Assembly (NCBI GenBank): GCA_945888825.1
Contig: CAMDAT010000001.1
Span: forward strand, 1 to 40,658
Origin: Bifidobacterium breve
Lineage (GTDB): Bacteria > Actinomycetota > Acidimicrobiia > Acidimicrobiales > Microtrichaceae
DNA length: 40,658 bases
Direction of reading: 5' to 3'
Below the pieces are notes generated by a model. That model was given only the letters and a program-made list of their open reading frames with translations. It ran no database searches and was not told the origin of the DNA. Below, in pieces: positions 1 through 35,696 of the stretch (positions within the stretch are counted from its first letter, which is position 1; the number at the start of each line of letters is the position of its first letter). A program made the translations under genes and the position numbers.

Positions 1-110
1 CCACCACAACAACGACCCCGGCGCCTGCAGGACCGAACCTGTTAGCCAACCCATCCTTCGAATCTGACGTTTTTGGATCAACCTTCACGAACTGGACGGT
101 GACCCCATGA
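1..110 (+). CDS. 3' end of a 5'-truncated CDS: Thr/Pro-rich linker followed by the N-terminal strand of a CBM4/9-like (galactose-binding fold) module
   Basis: Not in the ORF track. Frame 3 is open from the window edge and reads [35 protein letters not shown]-stop(108-110). NLLxNPxFE...W is the typical start of CBM4/9-type domains. The stop overlaps the next ATG (ATGA, 107-110). Confidence 0.75.
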
Positions 111-688
111 GCGGCATGCAGATCTTTGTGAAGACTCTGACAGGCAAAACAATCACCCTTGATGTCGAATCAAGTGACTCGATAGAAAACGTCAAACAGA
201 AGATCCAAGACAAAGAGGGTCTAGCCCCAGACATGCTGAGGCTGATCTTTGCAGGGCAGAAACTCGAAGACGGTCGCACGCTGGCCGACTACACGATCTC
301 GAAAGAAGCGACCCTTCACCTGATCTACCTAACTGGTGTGGTCACCTACGACTTGATGAACACCACGGGTGCACCGCCACTAGGTGCATCAAATCTTGCT
401 CACCTGACCGACGGTGCAAGCCTTGCGCAGCGGGTCACCGGCATCTCTCCGGGAGAGTACGTCCTCACCTTTTATTCCTCCGGAGATATCAGTTTTGCAG
501 TCGAATTCTTCGACTCGGCCGAGGCATCCGTCGGAGTGTCCTCAGGATCGGCAAGCAGCGCGGCCAACGATCTTGGACCCGTCACACTCAACGTCATGGC
601 ACCAACTGGGTCGGCAAGCGCCGAGGTTCGATTCGTAGGAGTTAACTCTTCGGTACTACTTGACCTGGTGCACTTCGGCACCGCCTAG
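107..688 (+). CDS. Ubiquitin-domain protein (eukaryote-like ubiquitin without diGly) fused to a C-terminal beta-sandwich, CBM-like region
   Basis: From 116 it reads [70 protein letters not shown]. The C-terminal part ([18 protein letters not shown]...AVEFFD...[18 protein letters not shown]...LLDLVHF) has a jelly-roll-like strand pattern. Confidence 0.9.
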
Positions 689-711: not shown

Positions 712-1854
712 TTAGACACCATCGGTGCGCATGAGCCGCCAGATGGTCGCCCAGATACGTCGCTGTACCGGTTCCACTCGGTCAGATGACCAGAGTGCCC
801 AGGGCGGTTCCGCTAGTGCACAGAGCCCAAGCAGCGCCTCCTCATAGTTCACCCTCCAACCCGCCCAATCGCGCCATGCTTGGTCTTGGTCAGCTACGAG
901 CGGTACACCCGCTGCGGCCATGGAATCCCAACACTCGTTGAATTCCGAGCGGCTGACTCTGATCGGGTCGTTTGGCTGAGGAAGGGGATTGAACGGAATC
1001 GAGAACTGCGCAGCAACCTCTTGTAGGCACAAGAAGCCCGAGCGCAGACACAACGCAGCGGACGGCTCGTGAGGGAGGTCAACTGCTGCGTCGATCAGTG
1101 CCGCCGAGTCAAGCAACGCTCCAGCGGCCGTCACCCAAGACCGCCCTTCACCCGAGCGAAAGTAGACCAGCGACGGGTATGAGGAATGCGACTCCTCAAC
1201 AAACGAGAACCAGTCCTCCCATTCAGCCCAGGTTTCTTCAAGATTCTCAAGGCCACGAATGGACTGTTGGCGAATAACAAAATTGGCAGCCGAGGGTGGC
1301 TGACCGGCCCGGCTAGATAGCTGAGCTACCAGAATCTCACGCTGGGAATATGCGCTGTAGATGGTGGGCAGAAATGAGATGAGCAACCCCACTAACCCGA
1401 GTCCAATGAGCGCTTCAAGTATTTCGACCAATCGAGCCGGTGAGGCATCTGCGTTAGCAAATCCCAGCGTGGTGAGCGAGGAGCCCGAGACTTGCAGCGC
1501 CTCGAGCCAACCCATATCGCCAAGCGCCCAGTGCAACGGAGTAAACCCGATAATGACTAACACCGCCCATGTACCGGCAAGCAGTACCAAAGCAACTGGG
1601 GCATACCGCTGGAGAAGTTGCTCTCGGCGATGAGCGCTAGCGCGACGCAGCGGAAGGTCAAGTGAGCGGCGGATAGAAAGAAACACCAATGCAGTCAGCT
1701 TGGGCCGTTCGCCTCGAGGCACTACCACAGTGCGCAACGCGCTCAGAAGAACCGAGCCAACCAACCACAGCCCAGCCGCCACCACAAGGGCTGCTGCCAC
1801 TGCTTGGACAAAATCGCTCAAATTCATGACGCAGACAACGCTCGCTCGACCCAT
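712..1854 (-). CDS. Membrane protein with a two-TM potassium-channel-like (Ion_trans_2) pore region and a cytoplasmic C-terminal domain
   Basis: Several hydrophobic helices and the pore-loop-like EALQVSGSSLTTLGF followed by TM LEALIGLGLVGLLISFLPTIYSAY. The true start may be the ATG at 1827. Confidence 0.7.
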   Translation of the reverse strand: MGRASVVCVMNLSDFVQAVAAALVVAAGLWLVGSVLLSALRTVVVPRGERPKLTALVFLSIRRSLDLPLRRASAHRREQLLQRYAPVALVLLAGTWAVLVIIGFTPLHWALGDMGWLEALQVSGSSLTTLGFANADASPARLVEILEALIGLGLVGLLISFLPTIYSAYSQREILVAQLSSRAGQPPSAANFVIRQQSIRGLENLEETWAEWEDWFSFVEESHSSYPSLVYFRSGEGRSWVTAAGALLDSAALIDAAVDLPHEPSAALCLRSGFLCLQEVAAQFSIPFNPLPQPNDPIRVSRSEFNECWDSMAAAGVPLVADQDQAWRDWAGWRVNYEEALLGLCALAEPPWALWSSDRVEPVQRRIWATIWRLMRTDGV

Positions 1855-11345: not shown

Positions 11346-12431
11346 ATGTCTCAGGTAGTACGCGAAGCGTTGGCAATAGCTATTCAGATCGGCCAGTCGG
11401 TCATGCTGTGGGGAGGCCCTGGCGAAGGGAAATCCCGAATGATCGAGCAACTCGCCGAGCAACTTAACCGGCCTTGCGAGGTTGTAGTTGGAAGCGTGCG
11501 AGAAGCCTCAGACTTTGTGGGCTTACCCGTGCGAGTGGGTGACTCCGTTTCATTCGCTCCTCCACTCTGGGCCACTCGGTGCATTGAACACCCAAATACC
11601 GTTGTGTTCTTGGACGAACTCACCACTGCAGCGCCATCGGTTCAGGCAGCGATGCTGCGCGTGATTCTTGAGCGTGAAGTAGGCGATCTTCGGCTGCCGC
11701 CCACAGTGTCGTTTGTAGCCGCAGCAAACCCGCCCGAAATATCCGCCGGTGGTGACGACCTTGCGCCACCGCTGGCAAACCGGTTCTGCCATCTTGAGTG
11801 GCAGGCGGACTCGGCAAACTGGGTCTCAGGCATGATCCGAGGCTGGCAGCCAGATGCAGTGCCCATTGTTCCAACAAGCCAAACCGTCGAACTTGCTCAT
11901 TGGCGAGCAATGCTGGCTGGGTACATCACGGCAAGGCCCTCGATTCTGCGACAAGTACCCACCGATACAGTCAATCAAGGAAGAGCCTGGCCCTCTCCTA
12001 GAACCTGGGATCAAGCGCATCGAGTAGCAGCCGCAGCGGATGCAGCGGGCGCAAGACGTTCAGTGCGATCCGCCTTAGTCACCGGCCTAGTTGGGTTCGG
12101 GGCCGCAATCGAGTTCCTGCGCTTTGCCGAGACTGTGGAACTTCCCGACCCTGAACTCCTACTCGCCGAGCCATCAACCTTGCTGACAGAAAGCCGGGTG
12201 GACCTTTTGTTGGCCTCCCTCGCCGCAGTCACAGCAGCAGTATCAGTGAATTGCACCCTTGAGCGTTGGCAGAGCGCATGGCAAGTTCTCGCCGTTGCAT
12301 GCGAGGCCGGCCGAGCCGATGTCGCCGCAGTGGCTTCGGTTGGTCTCATTGAGATGCGCCAGCCCGACTGGCCAGCCCCTGCTGCCGCAGCAGCCTTCGC
12401 ACCGGTCCTGCGCGCTGCAGAACTCGTCTAA
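11346..12431 (+). CDS. MoxR-clade / dynein-related AAA+ ATPase
   Basis: Walker A GGPGEGKS, Walker B VVFLDE, sensor AAANP, Arg finger LANRF and the WPSPRTW lid motif. Confidence 0.88.
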   Translation: MSQVVREALAIAIQIGQSVMLWGGPGEGKSRMIEQLAEQLNRPCEVVVGSVREASDFVGLPVRVGDSVSFAPPLWATRCIEHPNTVVFLDELTTAAPSVQAAMLRVILEREVGDLRLPPTVSFVAAANPPEISAGGDDLAPPLANRFCHLEWQADSANWVSGMIRGWQPDAVPIVPTSQTVELAHWRAMLAGYITARPSILRQVPTDTVNQGRAWPSPRTWDQAHRVAAAADAAGARRSVRSALVTGLVGFGAAIEFLRFAETVELPDPELLLAEPSTLLTESRVDLLLASLAAVTAAVSVNCTLERWQSAWQVLAVACEAGRADVAAVASVGLIEMRQPDWPAPAAAAAFAPVLRAAELV

Positions 12432-12436
12432 GGCTC

Positions 12437-12493
12437 CACAAATGACTGCGACACAAATGACTGCGACACAAATGACTGCACCGAGATGACTGC
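12437..12493 (+). repeat. 15-bp tandem repeat (CACAAATGACTGCRA-like), about 4 copies, spanning the intergenic gap and the next start codon
   Basis: ATGACTGC at 12442, 12457, 12472 and 12486 (spacing 15, 15, 14). Confidence 0.85.
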
Positions 12494-13727
12494 AACCAAT
12501 ATCAGCGCCACCCGCATCCCGCCTCTCTCTGGCGCAGACGCCGAGTTTTTCTCGGCCGCACGCCTCCGGGCAGCCAGACTGCAGCCCTACTTGGCTTCAG
12601 CGGTGTTCTCTCTCGTGCCCGTGGCCCAACCTGGGTACGGCACCTTTGGAGTAGATCGCTGGTGGCGGGTCTATCTAGATATGGACCGAGCAAGAGAATG
12701 GGGAATTGCGGCCACTGCAGCCGTCATTCTGCACGAGGCGCATCACGTGGTTCGAGACCATCACGCACGCGCTGATCGAATCAGCGTGGAAGCGCATCAC
12801 GCTCACCTCTGGAATCTTGCGGGTGATGCAGCTATCAACGACGACCTGCTCGAGGATGGTCTGGCGTTGCCCTCGCCGGTCTTACCCAAGCACCTCGGTC
12901 TTCAAACTGGGCTACTCGAAGAAACCTACTTTCGCCACCTGCTCGAACAAGAGGAGCAGGATCAGGCTCAGAAATCTTGTGGGTCAGGCTCAGGTGGAAC
13001 TCCACTCGAGTCCGAGATCGACCAAGAACCCGACTCAACAGACCCCGCTGGCCCGCAGGGAATAGATCAGGTAGAGGCCCAGGCCATACGCCGCGCCGTG
13101 GCGCACGATGTCGTAGCTGCTCAGGGAACAGGGCAAAACGTATCGCCAGGGCTGGTGCTCTGGGCACAAGACCTTCTCAATCCGCAGGTGCCTTGGCAAA
13201 GCTTGCTCCGCTCAGCTCTGGGTTCAAGCGCACGGGCAATCACATCAAAGCCGCAGCCAGATTGGGCTCGGCCCGACAGGCGCAGTGACTCCCGCCCTGA
13301 GTTTCCTCGGCCTGGCTCACGTCACCTGCGCCCTCAGGTCGCCGTCGTGATCGACACCTCCTACTCAATGTCTCGACCATTGCTCAACGCTGCAGTAACA
13401 GAGATCAATGCGCTGCTGCAGCGCTTCGGTGTGAGCGAACTCATCGTGGTCGTCTGTGACGCAGCGGCAACTCCCCCTCAACGAGTGCGCAGAATTGGCG
13501 AGCTGGCGTTGAGCGGTGGCGGCGGCACCGATCTTCGAGTCGGTATTGCGGCGGCAGCGGAATGCCGGCCAAGCCCGCAGATCATCGTCGTGCTCACCGA
13601 TGGCTTCACCCCGTGGCCTCAAGAGGCGCCGGCGCGAACAAAGCTGATCGCCATCATCATCGGCGATCACGCCCCACTTCCCGAGGGGACGGGAATCACC
13701 TCGCTTCGGATCAAGGAGCCCCGGTGA
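12486..13727 (+). CDS. DUF2201-type HExxH metallopeptidase fused to a vWA domain
   Basis: TFGVDRWWRVY, ILHEAHH (HExxH) and WNLAGDAAIND, then CGSGSGG. vWA MIDAS motifs VIDTSYSM, GGGGTD and VLTDG. Confidence 0.88.
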   Translation: MTATNISATRIPPLSGADAEFFSAARLRAARLQPYLASAVFSLVPVAQPGYGTFGVDRWWRVYLDMDRAREWGIAATAAVILHEAHHVVRDHHARADRISVEAHHAHLWNLAGDAAINDDLLEDGLALPSPVLPKHLGLQTGLLEETYFRHLLEQEEQDQAQKSCGSGSGGTPLESEIDQEPDSTDPAGPQGIDQVEAQAIRRAVAHDVVAAQGTGQNVSPGLVLWAQDLLNPQVPWQSLLRSALGSSARAITSKPQPDWARPDRRSDSRPEFPRPGSRHLRPQVAVVIDTSYSMSRPLLNAAVTEINALLQRFGVSELIVVVCDAAATPPQRVRRIGELALSGGGGTDLRVGIAAAAECRPSPQIIVVLTDGFTPWPQEAPARTKLIAIIIGDHAPLPEGTGITSLRIKEPR

Positions 13728-14821
13728 GCCTGGGTGTTCTTGAACCAGTTCAGATGCTGCAACAGCTACGCGCCACTACTCACCTCGACGAATGCTGCTC
13801 CCCGCAACGGCCATTCGAGGAATGCGAATGGTGTCACTGGGCCTTGTGTACGCCCGAGGCAACTCAACTCATGCAGATTCAAACGGATTGCGCTCAACTC
13901 CTGAACAGCAAACTTGCCCCAAGTGTTGCTTGGGTGATCGCCTGCTCGCAGTTGTTCGAGTCCTTTCATGGCATCGAACTCTCAGAGATTCGAGTGCCCG
14001 GCTCACGCGTGCTCGCAGGTCATCTACACAGGGAGCTGTCTGCGGCTCTCATCCCGCTTCGCAAAAAACTCGCTCAGGTCGGCAGAGAAAACGGTCCTCT
14101 CGCAGAGCGCTGCGCACAAACTGCAGGAGTACTCACAGCTGCGGCCATCCAACAACCACAGCATGCAGCCCTGCTAGCTCAGCTGCCGACATCGCTTCGT
14201 GAGCAACTGGGCAAGTTGGCCTCTTCACTCTCTTCTCAATTACAGATAGCGGGCATGTTGCCACTCATCGATCACCTGCACTGGCAGGGGCTGCCTTCGC
14301 TCGAGAGCCAACCCGAGTGGGACCGTCGACCGCGGCCTGGCGATGCCGCTGGCCTAAAGAGACGGCAACTCGCTGGCACCAATCTTGAGGCCGGTTCCCT
14401 TGAGTCCATCGTGGTCGAATCGATGTTCACTCAGCTCACCGAGCAGTTGCTCGAGATGAGCGAGCAGTTCCACCATGGCGCACCACCCGTCACCGTGAGT
14501 CGGCCTCTACAGCAGGGTCGCCATTCGCAGCGCACCCGCAACATGCTGTTTCGAATCGCAAAAATCGACTGGCATCTGAGCTTTGTCGACACTGGCTACG
14601 CCGCCTGTTGGAACACTCGCATTGAGGGTGATCACATGGTCACGGATCTACCTTGGCAAGTGGCCATGGCAGTTGAGGCCTGCGAAGCACATGGGCTTGT
14701 CAGCGCTTGTTACCAAGACCTTCCGCACAAGCCACCGCCTCAGCTGGACGTCAGGATGCAGTCAAGCTCGACGGCCCCATCACAGGCTGAGTTGTTGATC
14801 GTGTTCAAGCAGACCTCGTAG
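13724..14821 (+). CDS. Hypothetical 365-aa protein with an N-terminal Cys/His cluster (putative Zn site)
   Basis: The GTGA overlap with the upstream stop gives a start at 13724, in frame with ORF 13562. Contains HLDECCSPQRPFEECEWCHWALC. No family recognised. Confidence 0.72.
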   Translation: MSLGVLEPVQMLQQLRATTHLDECCSPQRPFEECEWCHWALCTPEATQLMQIQTDCAQLLNSKLAPSVAWVIACSQLFESFHGIELSEIRVPGSRVLAGHLHRELSAALIPLRKKLAQVGRENGPLAERCAQTAGVLTAAAIQQPQHAALLAQLPTSLREQLGKLASSLSSQLQIAGMLPLIDHLHWQGLPSLESQPEWDRRPRPGDAAGLKRRQLAGTNLEAGSLESIVVESMFTQLTEQLLEMSEQFHHGAPPVTVSRPLQQGRHSQRTRNMLFRIAKIDWHLSFVDTGYAACWNTRIEGDHMVTDLPWQVAMAVEACEAHGLVSACYQDLPHKPPPQLDVRMQSSSTAPSQAELLIVFKQTS

Positions 14822-34517: not shown

Positions 34518-35696
34518 ATGGGGGAAGCTATGAATCAGATGATCAGCAGGTTTTCGGGTGGAACGAACCATAAACGGACCAAGCTGTGGGGCCTAGCTGC
34601 GGTGTTCGTCTTCGCATCAGCGAGCGTCTCATGTGTACCTGCCCCGCAAGCACCGCCCACACCGCCGCCACCATGCAACGAACCCGTATGCCCGCTGGCG
34701 GCTGCCGCGCGTGCTCGCGGGATATACATGGGCGCCGAGGTCAACGCTGGCCGTCTGGCCACAAACCCTGCATACGCTGAGGCTGTTGTTCGCAACTTCA
34801 CCTCCGTGACGCCCGGGAATGAGCTCAAGTGGTCGGTCCTTCGCCCGTCTCCTACTGAGTGGAACTGGGGTCCAGCTGACTCAATAGTTGAGTTCGCAGA
34901 GGCAAATAACCTTGGCGTTCGAGGTCATACCTTGGCTTGGGTAAACGAATCTGGCGATCAAAACGGTCTGCCACCTTGGCTCCGCGGAGTCACCGACCCT
35001 GAGGCCTTTAGAACCTACGTCCTTGACGGAGTCGCCGAAACTGTCGGTAGATACCGAGGTCGCATCGACCGTTGGGATGTCGTGAATGAGGCGTTTGTTT
35101 ACTACAACGGGGAGCGTGCCCCATCCGTGTATGACCGAATGGGCCCGGATTACATCGCCGATCTGTTTGCAGCAGCCCATGCCGCAGACCCGGATGCCTC
35201 GCTGTGGCTCAATGAGGTCTTCACCGAACTGTTCCCTGACAAAGCTAACGCCATCTTGAGCCTTGTTTCTTCGCTGCGTAACCGGGGTGTGCCCATCCAC
35301 GGAGTTGGTTTACAGACCCACCTCACCCTGACACCCGAAGCCCCCGCAGCAGGCTCAATCAGCGGACTTGTATCGCGACTCAGGAGTCTTGGGGTGGAAG
35401 TTGCAATCACCGAACTCGACGTTCCTCTGGGGCCACTGCGGGGTGAGCAAGCTCAAGTGGACACCTACCGACAGGTCGTACGCGAGTGCTTAATCGCTGG
35501 TTGTTCAGAGATAACAACCTGGGGTGTTACTGATGCATTCACGACCCTAGACAGCGCCGGCCAGCGAGAGAATAACCCGCTACTTTCGGCATTCTTCTCG
35601 AATCCAAGCAAACCTCTGCTGCTCGATACCGCCTACAACCCGAAGGCCGCGTATCAAGCTGTTGTAGAAGCGATTGAGCAAACTCCGCGACCTTGA
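34518..35696 (+). CDS. Glycoside hydrolase family 10 (endo-1,4-beta-xylanase-like), probable lipoprotein
   Basis: TPGNELKW, RGHTLAW, WDVVNE (acid/base), GVGLQTH and ITELD (nucleophile). Signal peptide ends in Cys, followed by a Pro-rich linker. Confidence 0.9.
   Translation: MGEAMNQMISRFSGGTNHKRTKLWGLAAVFVFASASVSCVPAPQAPPTPPPPCNEPVCPLAAAARARGIYMGAEVNAGRLATNPAYAEAVVRNFTSVTPGNELKWSVLRPSPTEWNWGPADSIVEFAEANNLGVRGHTLAWVNESGDQNGLPPWLRGVTDPEAFRTYVLDGVAETVGRYRGRIDRWDVVNEAFVYYNGERAPSVYDRMGPDYIADLFAAAHAADPDASLWLNEVFTELFPDKANAILSLVSSLRNRGVPIHGVGLQTHLTLTPEAPAAGSISGLVSRLRSLGVEVAITELDVPLGPLRGEQAQVDTYRQVVRECLIAGCSEITTWGVTDAFTTLDSAGQRENNPLLSAFFSNPSKPLLLDTAYNPKAAYQAVVEAIEQTPRP

What the first reader, a model, noticed from the sequence alone, without database searches (positions are those of the whole stretch)
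116..325. Near-eukaryotic ubiquitin domain in a bacterial chromosome, apparently non-conjugatable
Seen: residues from 116 match human ubiquitin at 55 of the first 70 positions (my hand alignment from memory). The L8/I44/H68 patch and K6, K11, K27, K29, K33 and K63 are kept. K48-Q49 is swapped to Q-K, Q40 is M, S65 is A, and the LRLRGG tail is replaced by YLTGVV running into another domain. No E1/E2/E3 or JAB gene is visible in the window. Known: ordinary bacterial Ub-fold proteins (ThiS, MoaD) are far more divergent, and Actinobacteria tag proteins with Pup. The best-known precedent for a captured eukaryotic ubiquitin is Bacteroides fragilis BfUbb, which also lacks diGly and acts as a secreted antibacterial. 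Inference: horizontally acquired ubiquitin used as a binding module, mimic or toxin, for example against protist grazers, hosts or competitors.
Basis: partly seen in the sequence, partly recalled or inferred. Interest (0 to 1): 0.85.

Follow-up and report, generated by a model that had tools for sequence, protein, structure and literature searches.

The report
Split export carrier for captured ubiquitin
A freshwater bacterium carries a real, eukaryote-type ubiquitin fused to part of a carbohydrate-binding-module-like domain, while the start of that domain sits on a separate small gene with an export signal, so the two proteins likely snap together and carry the ubiquitin, probably captured from a protist, out to the cell surface.

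Summary
Real, not a chimera. ORF 107-688 is ubiquitin (55/70 identical to human, no diGly) fused to a 118-aa jelly roll. Matches occur in 5 of 8 same-genus genomes, and a cultured isolate carries two tandem copies.

It encodes a Tat/lipoprotein leader bearing the first strands of a CBM4/16/22-type fold, and its stop overlaps the ubiquitin ATG. The jelly roll lacks exactly those strands.

The split is a family trait: 35 ubiquitin-jelly-roll clusters and 36 short leaders. The leader may abut the ubiquitin gene, lie 30 nt away, be separated by a methyltransferase gene, or serve up to three ubiquitin genes, which argues against frameshifting.

Best reading: strand complementation plus Tat hitchhiking displays a non-conjugatable ubiquitin variant outside the cell (inferred; complex prediction only weak). 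The MSG start and signature residues point to a rhizarian-type donor; the tree is unresolved.

I44-face residues vary, so strict mimicry is doubtful and the target is untested. Signal-peptide-ubiquitin surface proteins are widespread, and this scan found them before on other DNA; I found the split system neither in earlier scan notes nor in my paper searches.

The parts
3..110 (+). 3' part of the leader gene (cut by the contig start): Thr/Pro stalk, then the NLxxNxSFE...W strands of a CBM-like fold, stop TGA at 108-110. Orthologues begin with a twin-arginine signal and a lipobox cysteine.
   Evidence: TIGR01409 19.7 bits vs cut-off 16.7 on orthologue L015; leader core dN 0, dS 0.24 over 8 copies
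36..95 (+). Conserved motif from the first Asn to the Trp, matching the N-terminal strands of CBM4/9-type domains
   Evidence: invariant N, L, N, F, W in alignment A4; weak PDB sequence matches to the same motif in 9fli and 4mgq, E 0.007 and 0.018; a relaxed form of the motif precedes the jelly-roll match on the same chain in 55 of 110 non-ubiquitin relatives vs 12% of random windows
98..102 (+). Possible Shine-Dalgarno GGTGA for the ATG at 107 (inferred)
   Evidence: sequence; kept in all 7 genus copies aligned
107..110 (+). ATGA stop/start overlap coupling the leader and ubiquitin genes
   Evidence: TGATG variant in L015
107..115 (+). MSG extension before ubiquitin Met1, like the start of polyubiquitins with rhizarian-type junction insertions
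   Evidence: P0007, P0017, P0023 start MSGMQIF; Bigelowiella P0069 starts MSMQIF
116..331 (+). Eukaryote-type ubiquitin domain, no C-terminal diGly
   Evidence: PF00240 E 3.5e-24; best 60/70 to an SG-junction monomer
332..688 (+). 118-aa jelly roll, CBM4/16/22/61-like, lacking roughly the first 30-45 residues of those modules
   Evidence: AF2 pLDDT 88; VIA-align Z 9.1, rmsd 2.9, 100 aligned, to CBM16 2zew residues 33-146; Z 8.7, rmsd 3.1, 102 aligned, to CBM22 1h6x 37-156; Z 7.8, rmsd 3.0, 96 aligned, to CBM4 1gui 44-157; top hit Z 10.9, rmsd 2.1, 104 aligned, to a tailspike domain 5w6h; dN/dS 0.07

Best explanation
This is a two-gene system: a short twin-arginine leader carries the first strands of a carbohydrate-binding-module-like jelly roll, a second protein without a signal carries ubiquitin plus the rest of the jelly roll, and the two likely fold together so that Tat would export the pair and display a non-conjugatable ubiquitin variant on the cell surface, probably as a binding tip or decoy toward eukaryotes such as protist grazers. 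SHOWN: both genes, the split position, selection on both, co-occurrence, no signal on the ubiquitin protein, and TatC in the genome. INFERRED: the complex, hitchhiker export, anchoring through the leader's lipid cysteine and Pro/Thr stalk in this genus, and capture of a rhizarian-type polyubiquitin 5' end whose out-of-frame ATGAGC created the stop. UNTESTED: the binding target.
For: The leader ends 23-29 residues after the motif start in 34 of 36 homologues, and 35 of 36 have RR/RK near the N-terminus (only proteins of 19-193 aa were searched). None of 35 ubiquitin-jelly-roll clusters has the motif in its first 100 residues, and 34 of 35 have no hydrophobic N-terminus; the exception is a 103-aa fragment. 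Intact relatives (CBM_4_9/DUF642 in the 10 of 12 non-ubiquitin hits scanned that had a Pfam match) carry the motif on the same chain, 55 of 110 vs 12% background. The structural match starts at CBM residue 33-45. Leader, full jelly roll and ubiquitin fall in the same 6 of 401 class genomes. Gene spacing varies: ATGA overlap (genus, L016, L024, L059), TGATG (L015), about 30 nt (G276), a whole methyltransferase gene in between (L025, L083, G058, G078, G338), and one leader for 2-3 ubiquitin genes. Passengers without a signal often carry extracellular parts: DUF4214, FN3/Big, or a PxF/YTG end (12 of 35) that also ends 20 other frames in G058, several with visible signal peptides (22 matches vs 2 control). 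TatC is present in 5 of 5 genomes. Complex prediction gave weak support: 0.37 vs best control 0.02; the mark was reached by 116 of 157 solved and 2 of 215 mismatched pairs, but at 0.60 or under by only 18 of 157 and by both mismatches; runs agree in at least 91% of contacts, partner pLDDT at least 63; halves of a split domain can pass by likeness to solved CBMs. Hitchhiking precedent: HybOC, PaoABC (PMC4273604 passages).
Against: No protein-level data. The complex score is in the weak band. The jelly roll models well without the leader (pLDDT 88), so it may fold alone. Co-occurrence is partly circular because the profiles were built from most of those genomes (the G058 and L025 leaders were found independently). 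One copy in G094 has no leader directly upstream and has a frame break. The eukaryote-facing role conflicts with drift: I44-patch identity is 0.64 in this family vs 0.92 in the signal-peptide class, and some members are only 32-35% identical. The donor is not resolved by the tree (2 of 102 branches starred), and SG or S also precedes ubiquitin in signal-peptide proteins of other bacteria (L023, L030, L031, L040), so the route may have passed through another bacterium.
Confidence: 0.55

Rival explanations
1. Same split and export, but ubiquitin is only a fast-folding solubility cap that keeps the incomplete jelly roll soluble until the leader strands dock; the working part is the rebuilt glycan-binding module.
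For: The jelly roll (dN/dS 0.07) and leader core (0) are more constrained than ubiquitin (0.21). Core hydrophobic positions are kept while surfaces drift. Members at 32-35% identity persist. Ubiquitin as an N-terminal folding aid is recalled from ubiquitin-ribosomal protein fusions.
Against: Residues 1-35 are as constrained as the jelly roll (0.064). Tandem arrays keep 2-3 different ubiquitins on similar jelly rolls. The parallel signal-peptide class keeps 85-99% of patch residues, which a mere tag would not need.
Confidence: 0.22
2. An exported antagonist like BfUbb: the ubiquitin variant inhibits an essential envelope protein of competing bacteria, and the variable face sets the target range.
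For: BfUbb and BoUbb are secreted, lack diGly and kill related strains through a periplasmic PPIase (PMC11467351, PMC3352274 passages). Variable sites cluster at 48-51 and 60-72 (dN/dS 1.26 for 61-72).
Against: No cysteine for the disulfide reported as crucial for BfUbb antagonism. The protein is fused and, in this genus, predicted to be tethered through the lipoprotein leader. No consistent small immunity-like gene was seen in the loci read.
Confidence: 0.1
3. The two genes are co-transcribed relics of a broken CBM gene that now act separately: a small exported peptide and a cytoplasmic ubiquitin fusion.
For: The jelly roll is predicted to fold alone; the complex score is only weak.
Against: The leader's conserved residues are those of the missing strands and show dN 0. 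The leader was never found without a ubiquitin-jelly roll in 401 genomes. Passengers carry extracellular domains and tails.
Confidence: 0.09
4. A programmed -1 frameshift joins leader and ubiquitin into one lipoprotein.
For: The frames overlap, and the ubiquitin frame is open for 13 codons upstream, with a T5 run.
Against: Most changes in those codons are synonymous in the leader frame and non-synonymous in the ubiquitin frame. The junction differs (ATGA vs TGATG). In G276 the genes do not overlap, and in 5 loci a methyltransferase gene lies between them.
Confidence: 0.03
5. Assembly chimera or eukaryotic contamination at a contig end.
For: The gene lies 106 nt from the contig start in a fragmented genome; eukaryotic polyubiquitin DNA in the same lake runs matches positions 111-156.
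Against: Orthologues with synonymous divergence and synteny, two copies in an isolate's record, bridging contigs, and host-like GC3.
Confidence: 0.01

Closest known systems
BfUbb / BoUbb (Bacteroides secreted ubiquitin homologues)
   Same: Horizontally acquired eukaryote-type ubiquitin, no terminal diGly, destined for export (PMC3352274, PMC11467351 passages).
   Different: BfUbb has its own signal peptide, is free-standing, is 63% identical to human and has a C-terminal disulfide. Here ubiquitin is 79% identical, has no cysteine and no signal, is fused to a partial jelly roll, and the signal is on a separate gene.
Tat hitchhiker complexes (HybOC, PaoABC)
   Same: A subunit without a signal is predicted to be exported by a partner that bears the twin-arginine signal (PMC4273604 passages).
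   Different: The known cases read here are cofactor enzymes made of whole subunits. Here the signal-bearing partner is a 70-100-aa peptide that would donate strands to one split domain, and one leader can serve several passengers.
CBM4/9, CBM16, CBM22, CBM61 (galactose-binding-domain-like jelly rolls; Pfam PF02018)
   Same: Fold and the N-terminal NLxxNxxFE...W motif.
   Different: Split over two genes with ubiquitin at the break; no catalytic module; glycan binding unknown.
Rhizarian polyubiquitin with one- or two-residue junction insertions
   Same: Start MSG-/MS-MQIF; D16, S19, Q28 and A57 occur together in 12 of 19 SG-junction and 4 of 11 S-junction monomers vs 0 of 97 insertion-free monomers.
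   Different: Single copy, no LRLRGG, 10 further substitutions in 70, bacterial codon use.
Signal peptide + ubiquitin + surface anchor proteins of many prokaryotes
   Same: Ubiquitin at a free N-terminus, diGly usually lost, envelope destination.
   Different: Those are single polypeptides with an own signal and far better conserved ubiquitin surfaces.
Prokaryotic ubiquitin-like conjugation systems (ThiS/MoaD/CysO, SAMP, BilA, Pup)
   Same: Beta-grasp fold (not Pup).
   Different: No diGly, no E1/E2/JAB neighbours in the loci read, and near-eukaryotic sequence; the genome's one Prok-JAB gene lies on another contig beside a cysteine-synthase-like gene (my reading of the translation).

Membership tests
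Ubiquitin family (PF00240) | Sequence match above the curated cut-off | tested here: met
   84.8 bits vs 25.4
Conjugatable ubiquitin modifier | C-terminal diGly, free or releasable | tested here: not met
   Tail YLTGVV; G76 kept in 1 of 20 family members
Conjugatable ubiquitin modifier | E1/E2/E3 machinery in the genome | tested here: inconclusive
   PF00179 in 0 of 5 genomes, but the control rang in 0 of 14 and G000 is 82% complete; E1 and E3 families were not searched genome-wide
BfUbb/BoUbb | Own N-terminal signal peptide on a free-standing ubiquitin | tested here: not met
   Starts MSGMQIF after a stop and is fused to a 118-aa domain
BfUbb/BoUbb | C-terminal cysteine/disulfide | tested here: not met
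   No cysteine in the 193-aa protein; feature from PMC11467351
BfUbb/BoUbb | Antibacterial activity through PPIase binding | not testable with these tools
   Needs assays
CBM4/9/16/22-type module | Jelly-roll fold | tested here: met
   Z 9.1-9.6, rmsd 2.6-2.9, 100-102 aligned to 2zew, 2w5f, 8xmz; other jelly rolls score as high, so the exact family is open
CBM4/9/16/22-type module | Pfam CBM match of the domain itself | tested here: inconclusive
   No CBM family at E 0.1; its profile reaches CBM_4_9/DUF642 proteins
CBM4/9/16/22-type module | N-terminal strands on the same chain | tested here: not met
   They are on the leader gene
CBM4/9/16/22-type module | Carbohydrate binding | not testable with these tools
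   Needs a glycan array
Tat hitchhiker pair | Partner with a twin-arginine signal; TatC in the genome | tested here: met
   TIGR01409 above cut-off for the L015 leader, no match for the two other leaders scanned; RR/RK in 35 of 36 homologues; TatC 5 of 5
Tat hitchhiker pair | Passenger without its own signal | tested here: met
   34 of 35 clusters without a hydrophobic N-terminus
Tat hitchhiker pair | Stable complex of the two | tested here: inconclusive
   Weak support, 0.37 vs best control 0.02; passes at or under 0.60 held 18 of 157 solved pairs and both passing mismatches of 215
Tat hitchhiker pair | Partner-dependent export | not testable with these tools
   Needs fractionation
Descent from rhizarian polyubiquitin | One- or two-residue insertion before Met1, plus shared residues | tested here: met
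   insertion described as rhizarian-specific in PMC3014934 and PMC12930898. That the two-residue form is SG is recalled, and the SG polyubiquitins are unnamed.
Descent from rhizarian polyubiquitin | Supported clade with rhizarian monomers | tested here: inconclusive
   105 rows x 72 columns, quick tree, 2 of 102 branches starred

The most novel reading that the evidence does not exclude
Freshwater Acidimicrobiia have built a modular display platform from a split lectin-like domain: one Tat leader peptide clips onto any of several ubiquitin-jelly-roll passengers and hauls them out. The cargo is ubiquitin taken, more than once, from the protists that eat these bacteria, and its I44 face is diversified into natural ubiquitin variants that bind or jam grazer ubiquitin-system proteins.
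Probability: 0.25. Interest if true: 0.9.

Novelty: new variant of a known kind. Interest (0 to 1): 0.72.

Why it matters
Papers read here treat eukaryote-type ubiquitin in bacteria as a Bacteroides peculiarity. This locus belongs to a defined family in free-living lake bacteria, with a cultured carrier (IMCC26207) in which it can be tested. If the mechanism holds, it is a natural case of a single domain split so that its first strands act as a detachable export handle. That extends Tat hitchhiking beyond enzyme subunits and suggests a reusable display tool. It would also give a direct test of whether bacteria use captured ubiquitin against protist grazers, and a natural set of ubiquitin surface variants.

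Tried and rejected
Homologue searches. The whole-protein search was swamped by polyubiquitins. No second copy or uninterrupted parent gene was found in G000. No ubiquitin-free jelly roll of this subfamily was found in 401 class genomes except a 28-residue remnant in G042, so the direct unsplit ancestor was not found. Two weak hits (G165, G331) did not recur with the larger profile. The three same-genus genomes without ubiquitin (73-82% complete) also lack the neighbouring gene, so loss cannot be claimed.

Structure and tree. The full-length AF2 model was poor (pLDDT 62) and was replaced by a jelly-roll-only model. The ubiquitin tree is unresolved and the jelly-roll tree failed on a script error, so repeated capture is not shown. 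ESM Atlas look-alikes of the jelly roll were not obtained, so that comparison is open. No model of leader plus jelly roll as one chain was made.

Expression. Contigs from RNA libraries cover parts of the two genes (X18 164-398 and 301-537, X19 139-293 and 350-561, X20 1-178) at small shares and low depth, and do not show transcription; nothing from X18-X20 lay on 601-1500.

Partners. The methyltransferase has no relative in G000, so it is optional; it passes no NCBIfam cut-off (best HemK2/PrmC-like). The E2 search was uninformative.

Literature. Searches listed no paper describing this architecture; some searches were for background. The library lacks most subscription papers. Supplements were not opened; PMC11467351 saved 100 bacterial BfUbb-like hits whose list I did not see and which may include such proteins.

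Full report
OBSERVATION. The window is the first 40,658 bases of contig C1 of a 2.59-Mb, 298-contig genome whose DNA occurs mostly in lake-water and other freshwater runs. ORF 107-688 (+) encodes 193 aa. Residues 4-75 are ubiquitin (PF00240, E 3.5e-24), 55 of 70 identical to the PDB polyubiquitin by my count. The neighbours are ordinary bacterial genes, and none of 34 ORFs scanned is an E1, E2, E3 or JAB.

NOT A CHIMERA. Of 40 relatives, 5 of 8 in the genus match (4 full length at 91-97%, 2 of these with tandem copies, 1 partial at a contig edge) and 0 of 32 from other genera. Synteny is kept. The record titled Actinobacteria bacterium IMCC26207 (L021) holds two leader-ubiquitin units; that strain is a cultured freshwater actinobacterium, 'Ca. 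Limnosphaera' (PMC8353197 passages). Contigs from three of four runs laid bridge the internal junctions. Placement in Acidimicrobiia is inferred from titles of related records.

THE MISSED GENE. In another frame, bases 3-110 read a Thr/Pro stalk and the motif NLxxNxSFE...W, then TGA overlapping the ubiquitin ATG. Full orthologues begin with RRKFL and a lipobox cysteine; the L015 leader passes the Tat-signal cut-off. Over 8 copies, pooled pairwise dN/dS is 0 for the 23-codon leader core (dS 0.24), 0.02 for the signal (7 copies), 0.07 for the jelly roll and 0.21 for ubiquitin (paralogues pooled, pairs not independent). The 118-aa C-terminal domain models at pLDDT 88 and overlays CBM16, CBM22 and CBM4 only from their residues 33-45 onward. 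Intact relatives found by its profile are mostly CBM_4_9/DUF642 proteins where scanned and carry a relaxed form of the motif directly upstream in 55 of 110 cases vs 12% background; the strict motif gave 14 of 116 vs 3%. So ubiquitin sits at the break of one CBM-like domain that is now two polypeptides.

A FAMILY. Of the best 150 representatives at 50% identity, 35 are ubiquitin plus jelly roll, including 31 of the top 43; none has the motif in its first 100 residues and 34 lack a hydrophobic N-terminus. The leader profile finds 36 short proteins, 34 of which end 23-29 residues after the motif start (search limited to 19-193 aa). In 401 class genomes the leader, the full jelly roll and ubiquitin fall in the same 6; ubiquitin occurs in 2 more; this is partly circular. 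Arrangement varies: ATGA overlap, TGATG overlap, a gap of about 30 nt, or a HemK-like methyltransferase gene in between (L025, L083, G058, G078, G338), and one leader precedes 2-3 ubiquitin genes in L016, L083, G058, G078 and G338. This argues strongly against a frameshift and implies action in trans. Several passengers carry DUF4214, FN3/Big domains or a PxF/YTG end, which in G058 also terminates large stalked proteins, several with visible signal peptides. They look extracellular yet have no signal.

MECHANISM. Inferred: coupled translation makes both chains; the leader strands complete the jelly roll in the cytoplasm; Tat (TatC in 5 of 5 genomes) exports the folded pair as it does HybOC and PaoABC (PMC4273604 passages). 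In this genus the leader's lipid cysteine and stalk would hold ubiquitin off the membrane with a free N-terminus; other lineages would use the passenger's own tail or release it. Complex prediction gave weak support: 0.37 against a best control of 0.02. The mark was reached by 116 of 157 solved and 2 of 215 mismatched pairs, but at 0.60 or under by 18 of 157 and both mismatches; runs agree in at least 91% of contacts, partner pLDDT is at least 63, and split halves can pass by likeness to solved CBMs.

ORIGIN. The top hits are polyubiquitins with SG or S between monomers; several start MSGMQIF or MSMQIF, including the one named rhizarian, Bigelowiella natans (S type). Junction insertions of one or two residues are described as rhizarian-specific (PMC3014934, PMC12930898 passages); that the double one is SG is my recall. 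D16, S19, Q28 and A57 occur together in 12 of 19 SG, 4 of 11 S and 0 of 97 insertion-free monomers (drawn from only the top 120 of 7961 hits), though the best identities differ little (60 vs 59 of 70). An ATGAGC start landing one base out of frame creates the TGA by itself, which would explain the split (inference). Against: the tree is unresolved, and other bacteria have SG or S after their signal peptides. Downstream copies in arrays lack MSG and some are closer to insertion-free ubiquitin (66 vs 51-52 of 70 to the window copy), hinting at repeated capture, which is not shown.

WHAT THE UBIQUITIN DOES. It cannot be conjugated. In 21 genus variants 29 of 72 ubiquitin sites vary vs 17 of 118 in the jelly roll; dN/dS is 0.06 for residues 1-35, 0.52 for 36-72 and 1.26 for 61-72; I44, R42 and F4 are fixed, but K48 and V70 are always replaced and H68 usually is. 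Ubiquitin-binding domains read the F4, I36 and I44 patches (PMC11503651 passage; patch residue lists recalled). Family-wide the I44 patch is 0.64 conserved vs 0.92 in the signal-peptide class, and the F4 patch 0.93 vs 0.99. This fits a retargeted binding tip, resembling engineered ubiquitin variants (recalled), or simple relaxation. I favour the binding tip aimed at eukaryotes, given the likely protist donor and the diverse arrays; the folding-cap reading remains a serious rival.

WIDER CONTEXT. Of the 76 outside this genus, 49 have a signal-peptide-like stretch by a crude hydrophobicity rule, 4 belong to the split family and 23 have neither, 15 of these with intact GG and possibly contaminants. 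Earlier notes of this scan describe that signal-peptide class on other DNA; none came up for the split system.

COMPARISON AND NOVELTY. It works like BfUbb in being a captured, exported, non-conjugatable ubiquitin (PMC3352274, PMC11467351 passages) but fails BfUbb membership. It is predicted to work like a Tat hitchhiker pair but uses one split domain. Searches (listings and abstract starts) and passages of the review PMC11354881 showed no description of it; most subscription papers and all supplements were unseen. Verdict: a real and previously undescribed variant of bacterial captured ubiquitin, with an unusual export architecture and an open target. Interest 0.72.

Noticed in passing
L022-L097: Signal peptide + near-eukaryotic ubiquitin + surface anchor (tails that look like autotransporter, CTERM, T9SS, SLH or LPXTG types, by eye) in records of many bacterial phyla and Methanotrichaceae; 49 of 76 loci by a crude rule.
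   Followed up: partly
L031:359-568: A Prosthecobacter signal-peptide ubiquitin is 69 of 70 identical to an S-junction (rhizarian-type) monomer and keeps the S before Met1, suggesting a separate, recent capture.
   Followed up: partly
G058 chromosome, L152-L177: A C-terminal PxF/YTG-stop motif without a transmembrane helix ends 22 frames (control 2), many of them large stalked proteins; it looks like a sorting signal, has no NCBIfam match in the 3 carriers scanned, and is absent from G000.
   Followed up: partly
L110:5881-6912, L025:1339-2367, L083, L111, L114: HemK2/PrmC-like methyltransferase (42% identity between G058 and L025) between leader and ubiquitin genes in five loci; substrate unknown; no relative in G000.
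   Followed up: partly
L099 (G094:C12 about 228.7-230.2 kb): One ubiquitin copy has a frame break and no leader directly upstream; the other has a strongly diverged ubiquitin with an extended N-terminus.
   Followed up: no
L138:1411-1782 (G042): Only the last 28 residues of the jelly roll match, at the site where relatives carry the operon; possibly a decayed copy.
   Followed up: no
L027:2501-3265: Microthrixaceae ubiquitin fusion with a sortase-like tail and membrane anchor but no evident signal peptide and no jelly roll; export route unexplained.
   Followed up: no
L043, L052, L069, L075: Stand-alone ubiquitin with intact GG in AT-rich contigs of prokaryote-labelled genomes; could be viral or eukaryotic contamination.
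   Followed up: no
P0323: A leader homologue preceded by an extra N-terminal domain of about 70 residues before its RR-like signal.
   Followed up: no
window 110-156, runs X1, X4, X8, X18, X19: Eukaryotic polyubiquitin contigs from the same habitats match the first ubiquitin codons; in some the match includes the SG codons preceded by LRLR-type sequence.
   Followed up: partly
G006 copy (L012:1622-2200): Mosaic of residues from the two paralogue types, suggesting gene conversion between tandem copies.
   Followed up: no
L147, L149 (G287): Divergent ubiquitin-like domains inside frames over 1,200 aa that look eukaryotic; probably bin contamination.
   Followed up: no
window 712-1854, 11346-14821, 34518-35696: Two-helix channel-like gene next to the locus; AAA_5 + DUF2201 VWA/metallopeptidase pair; GH10 glycoside hydrolase. 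Ordinary, with no link shown.
   Followed up: no
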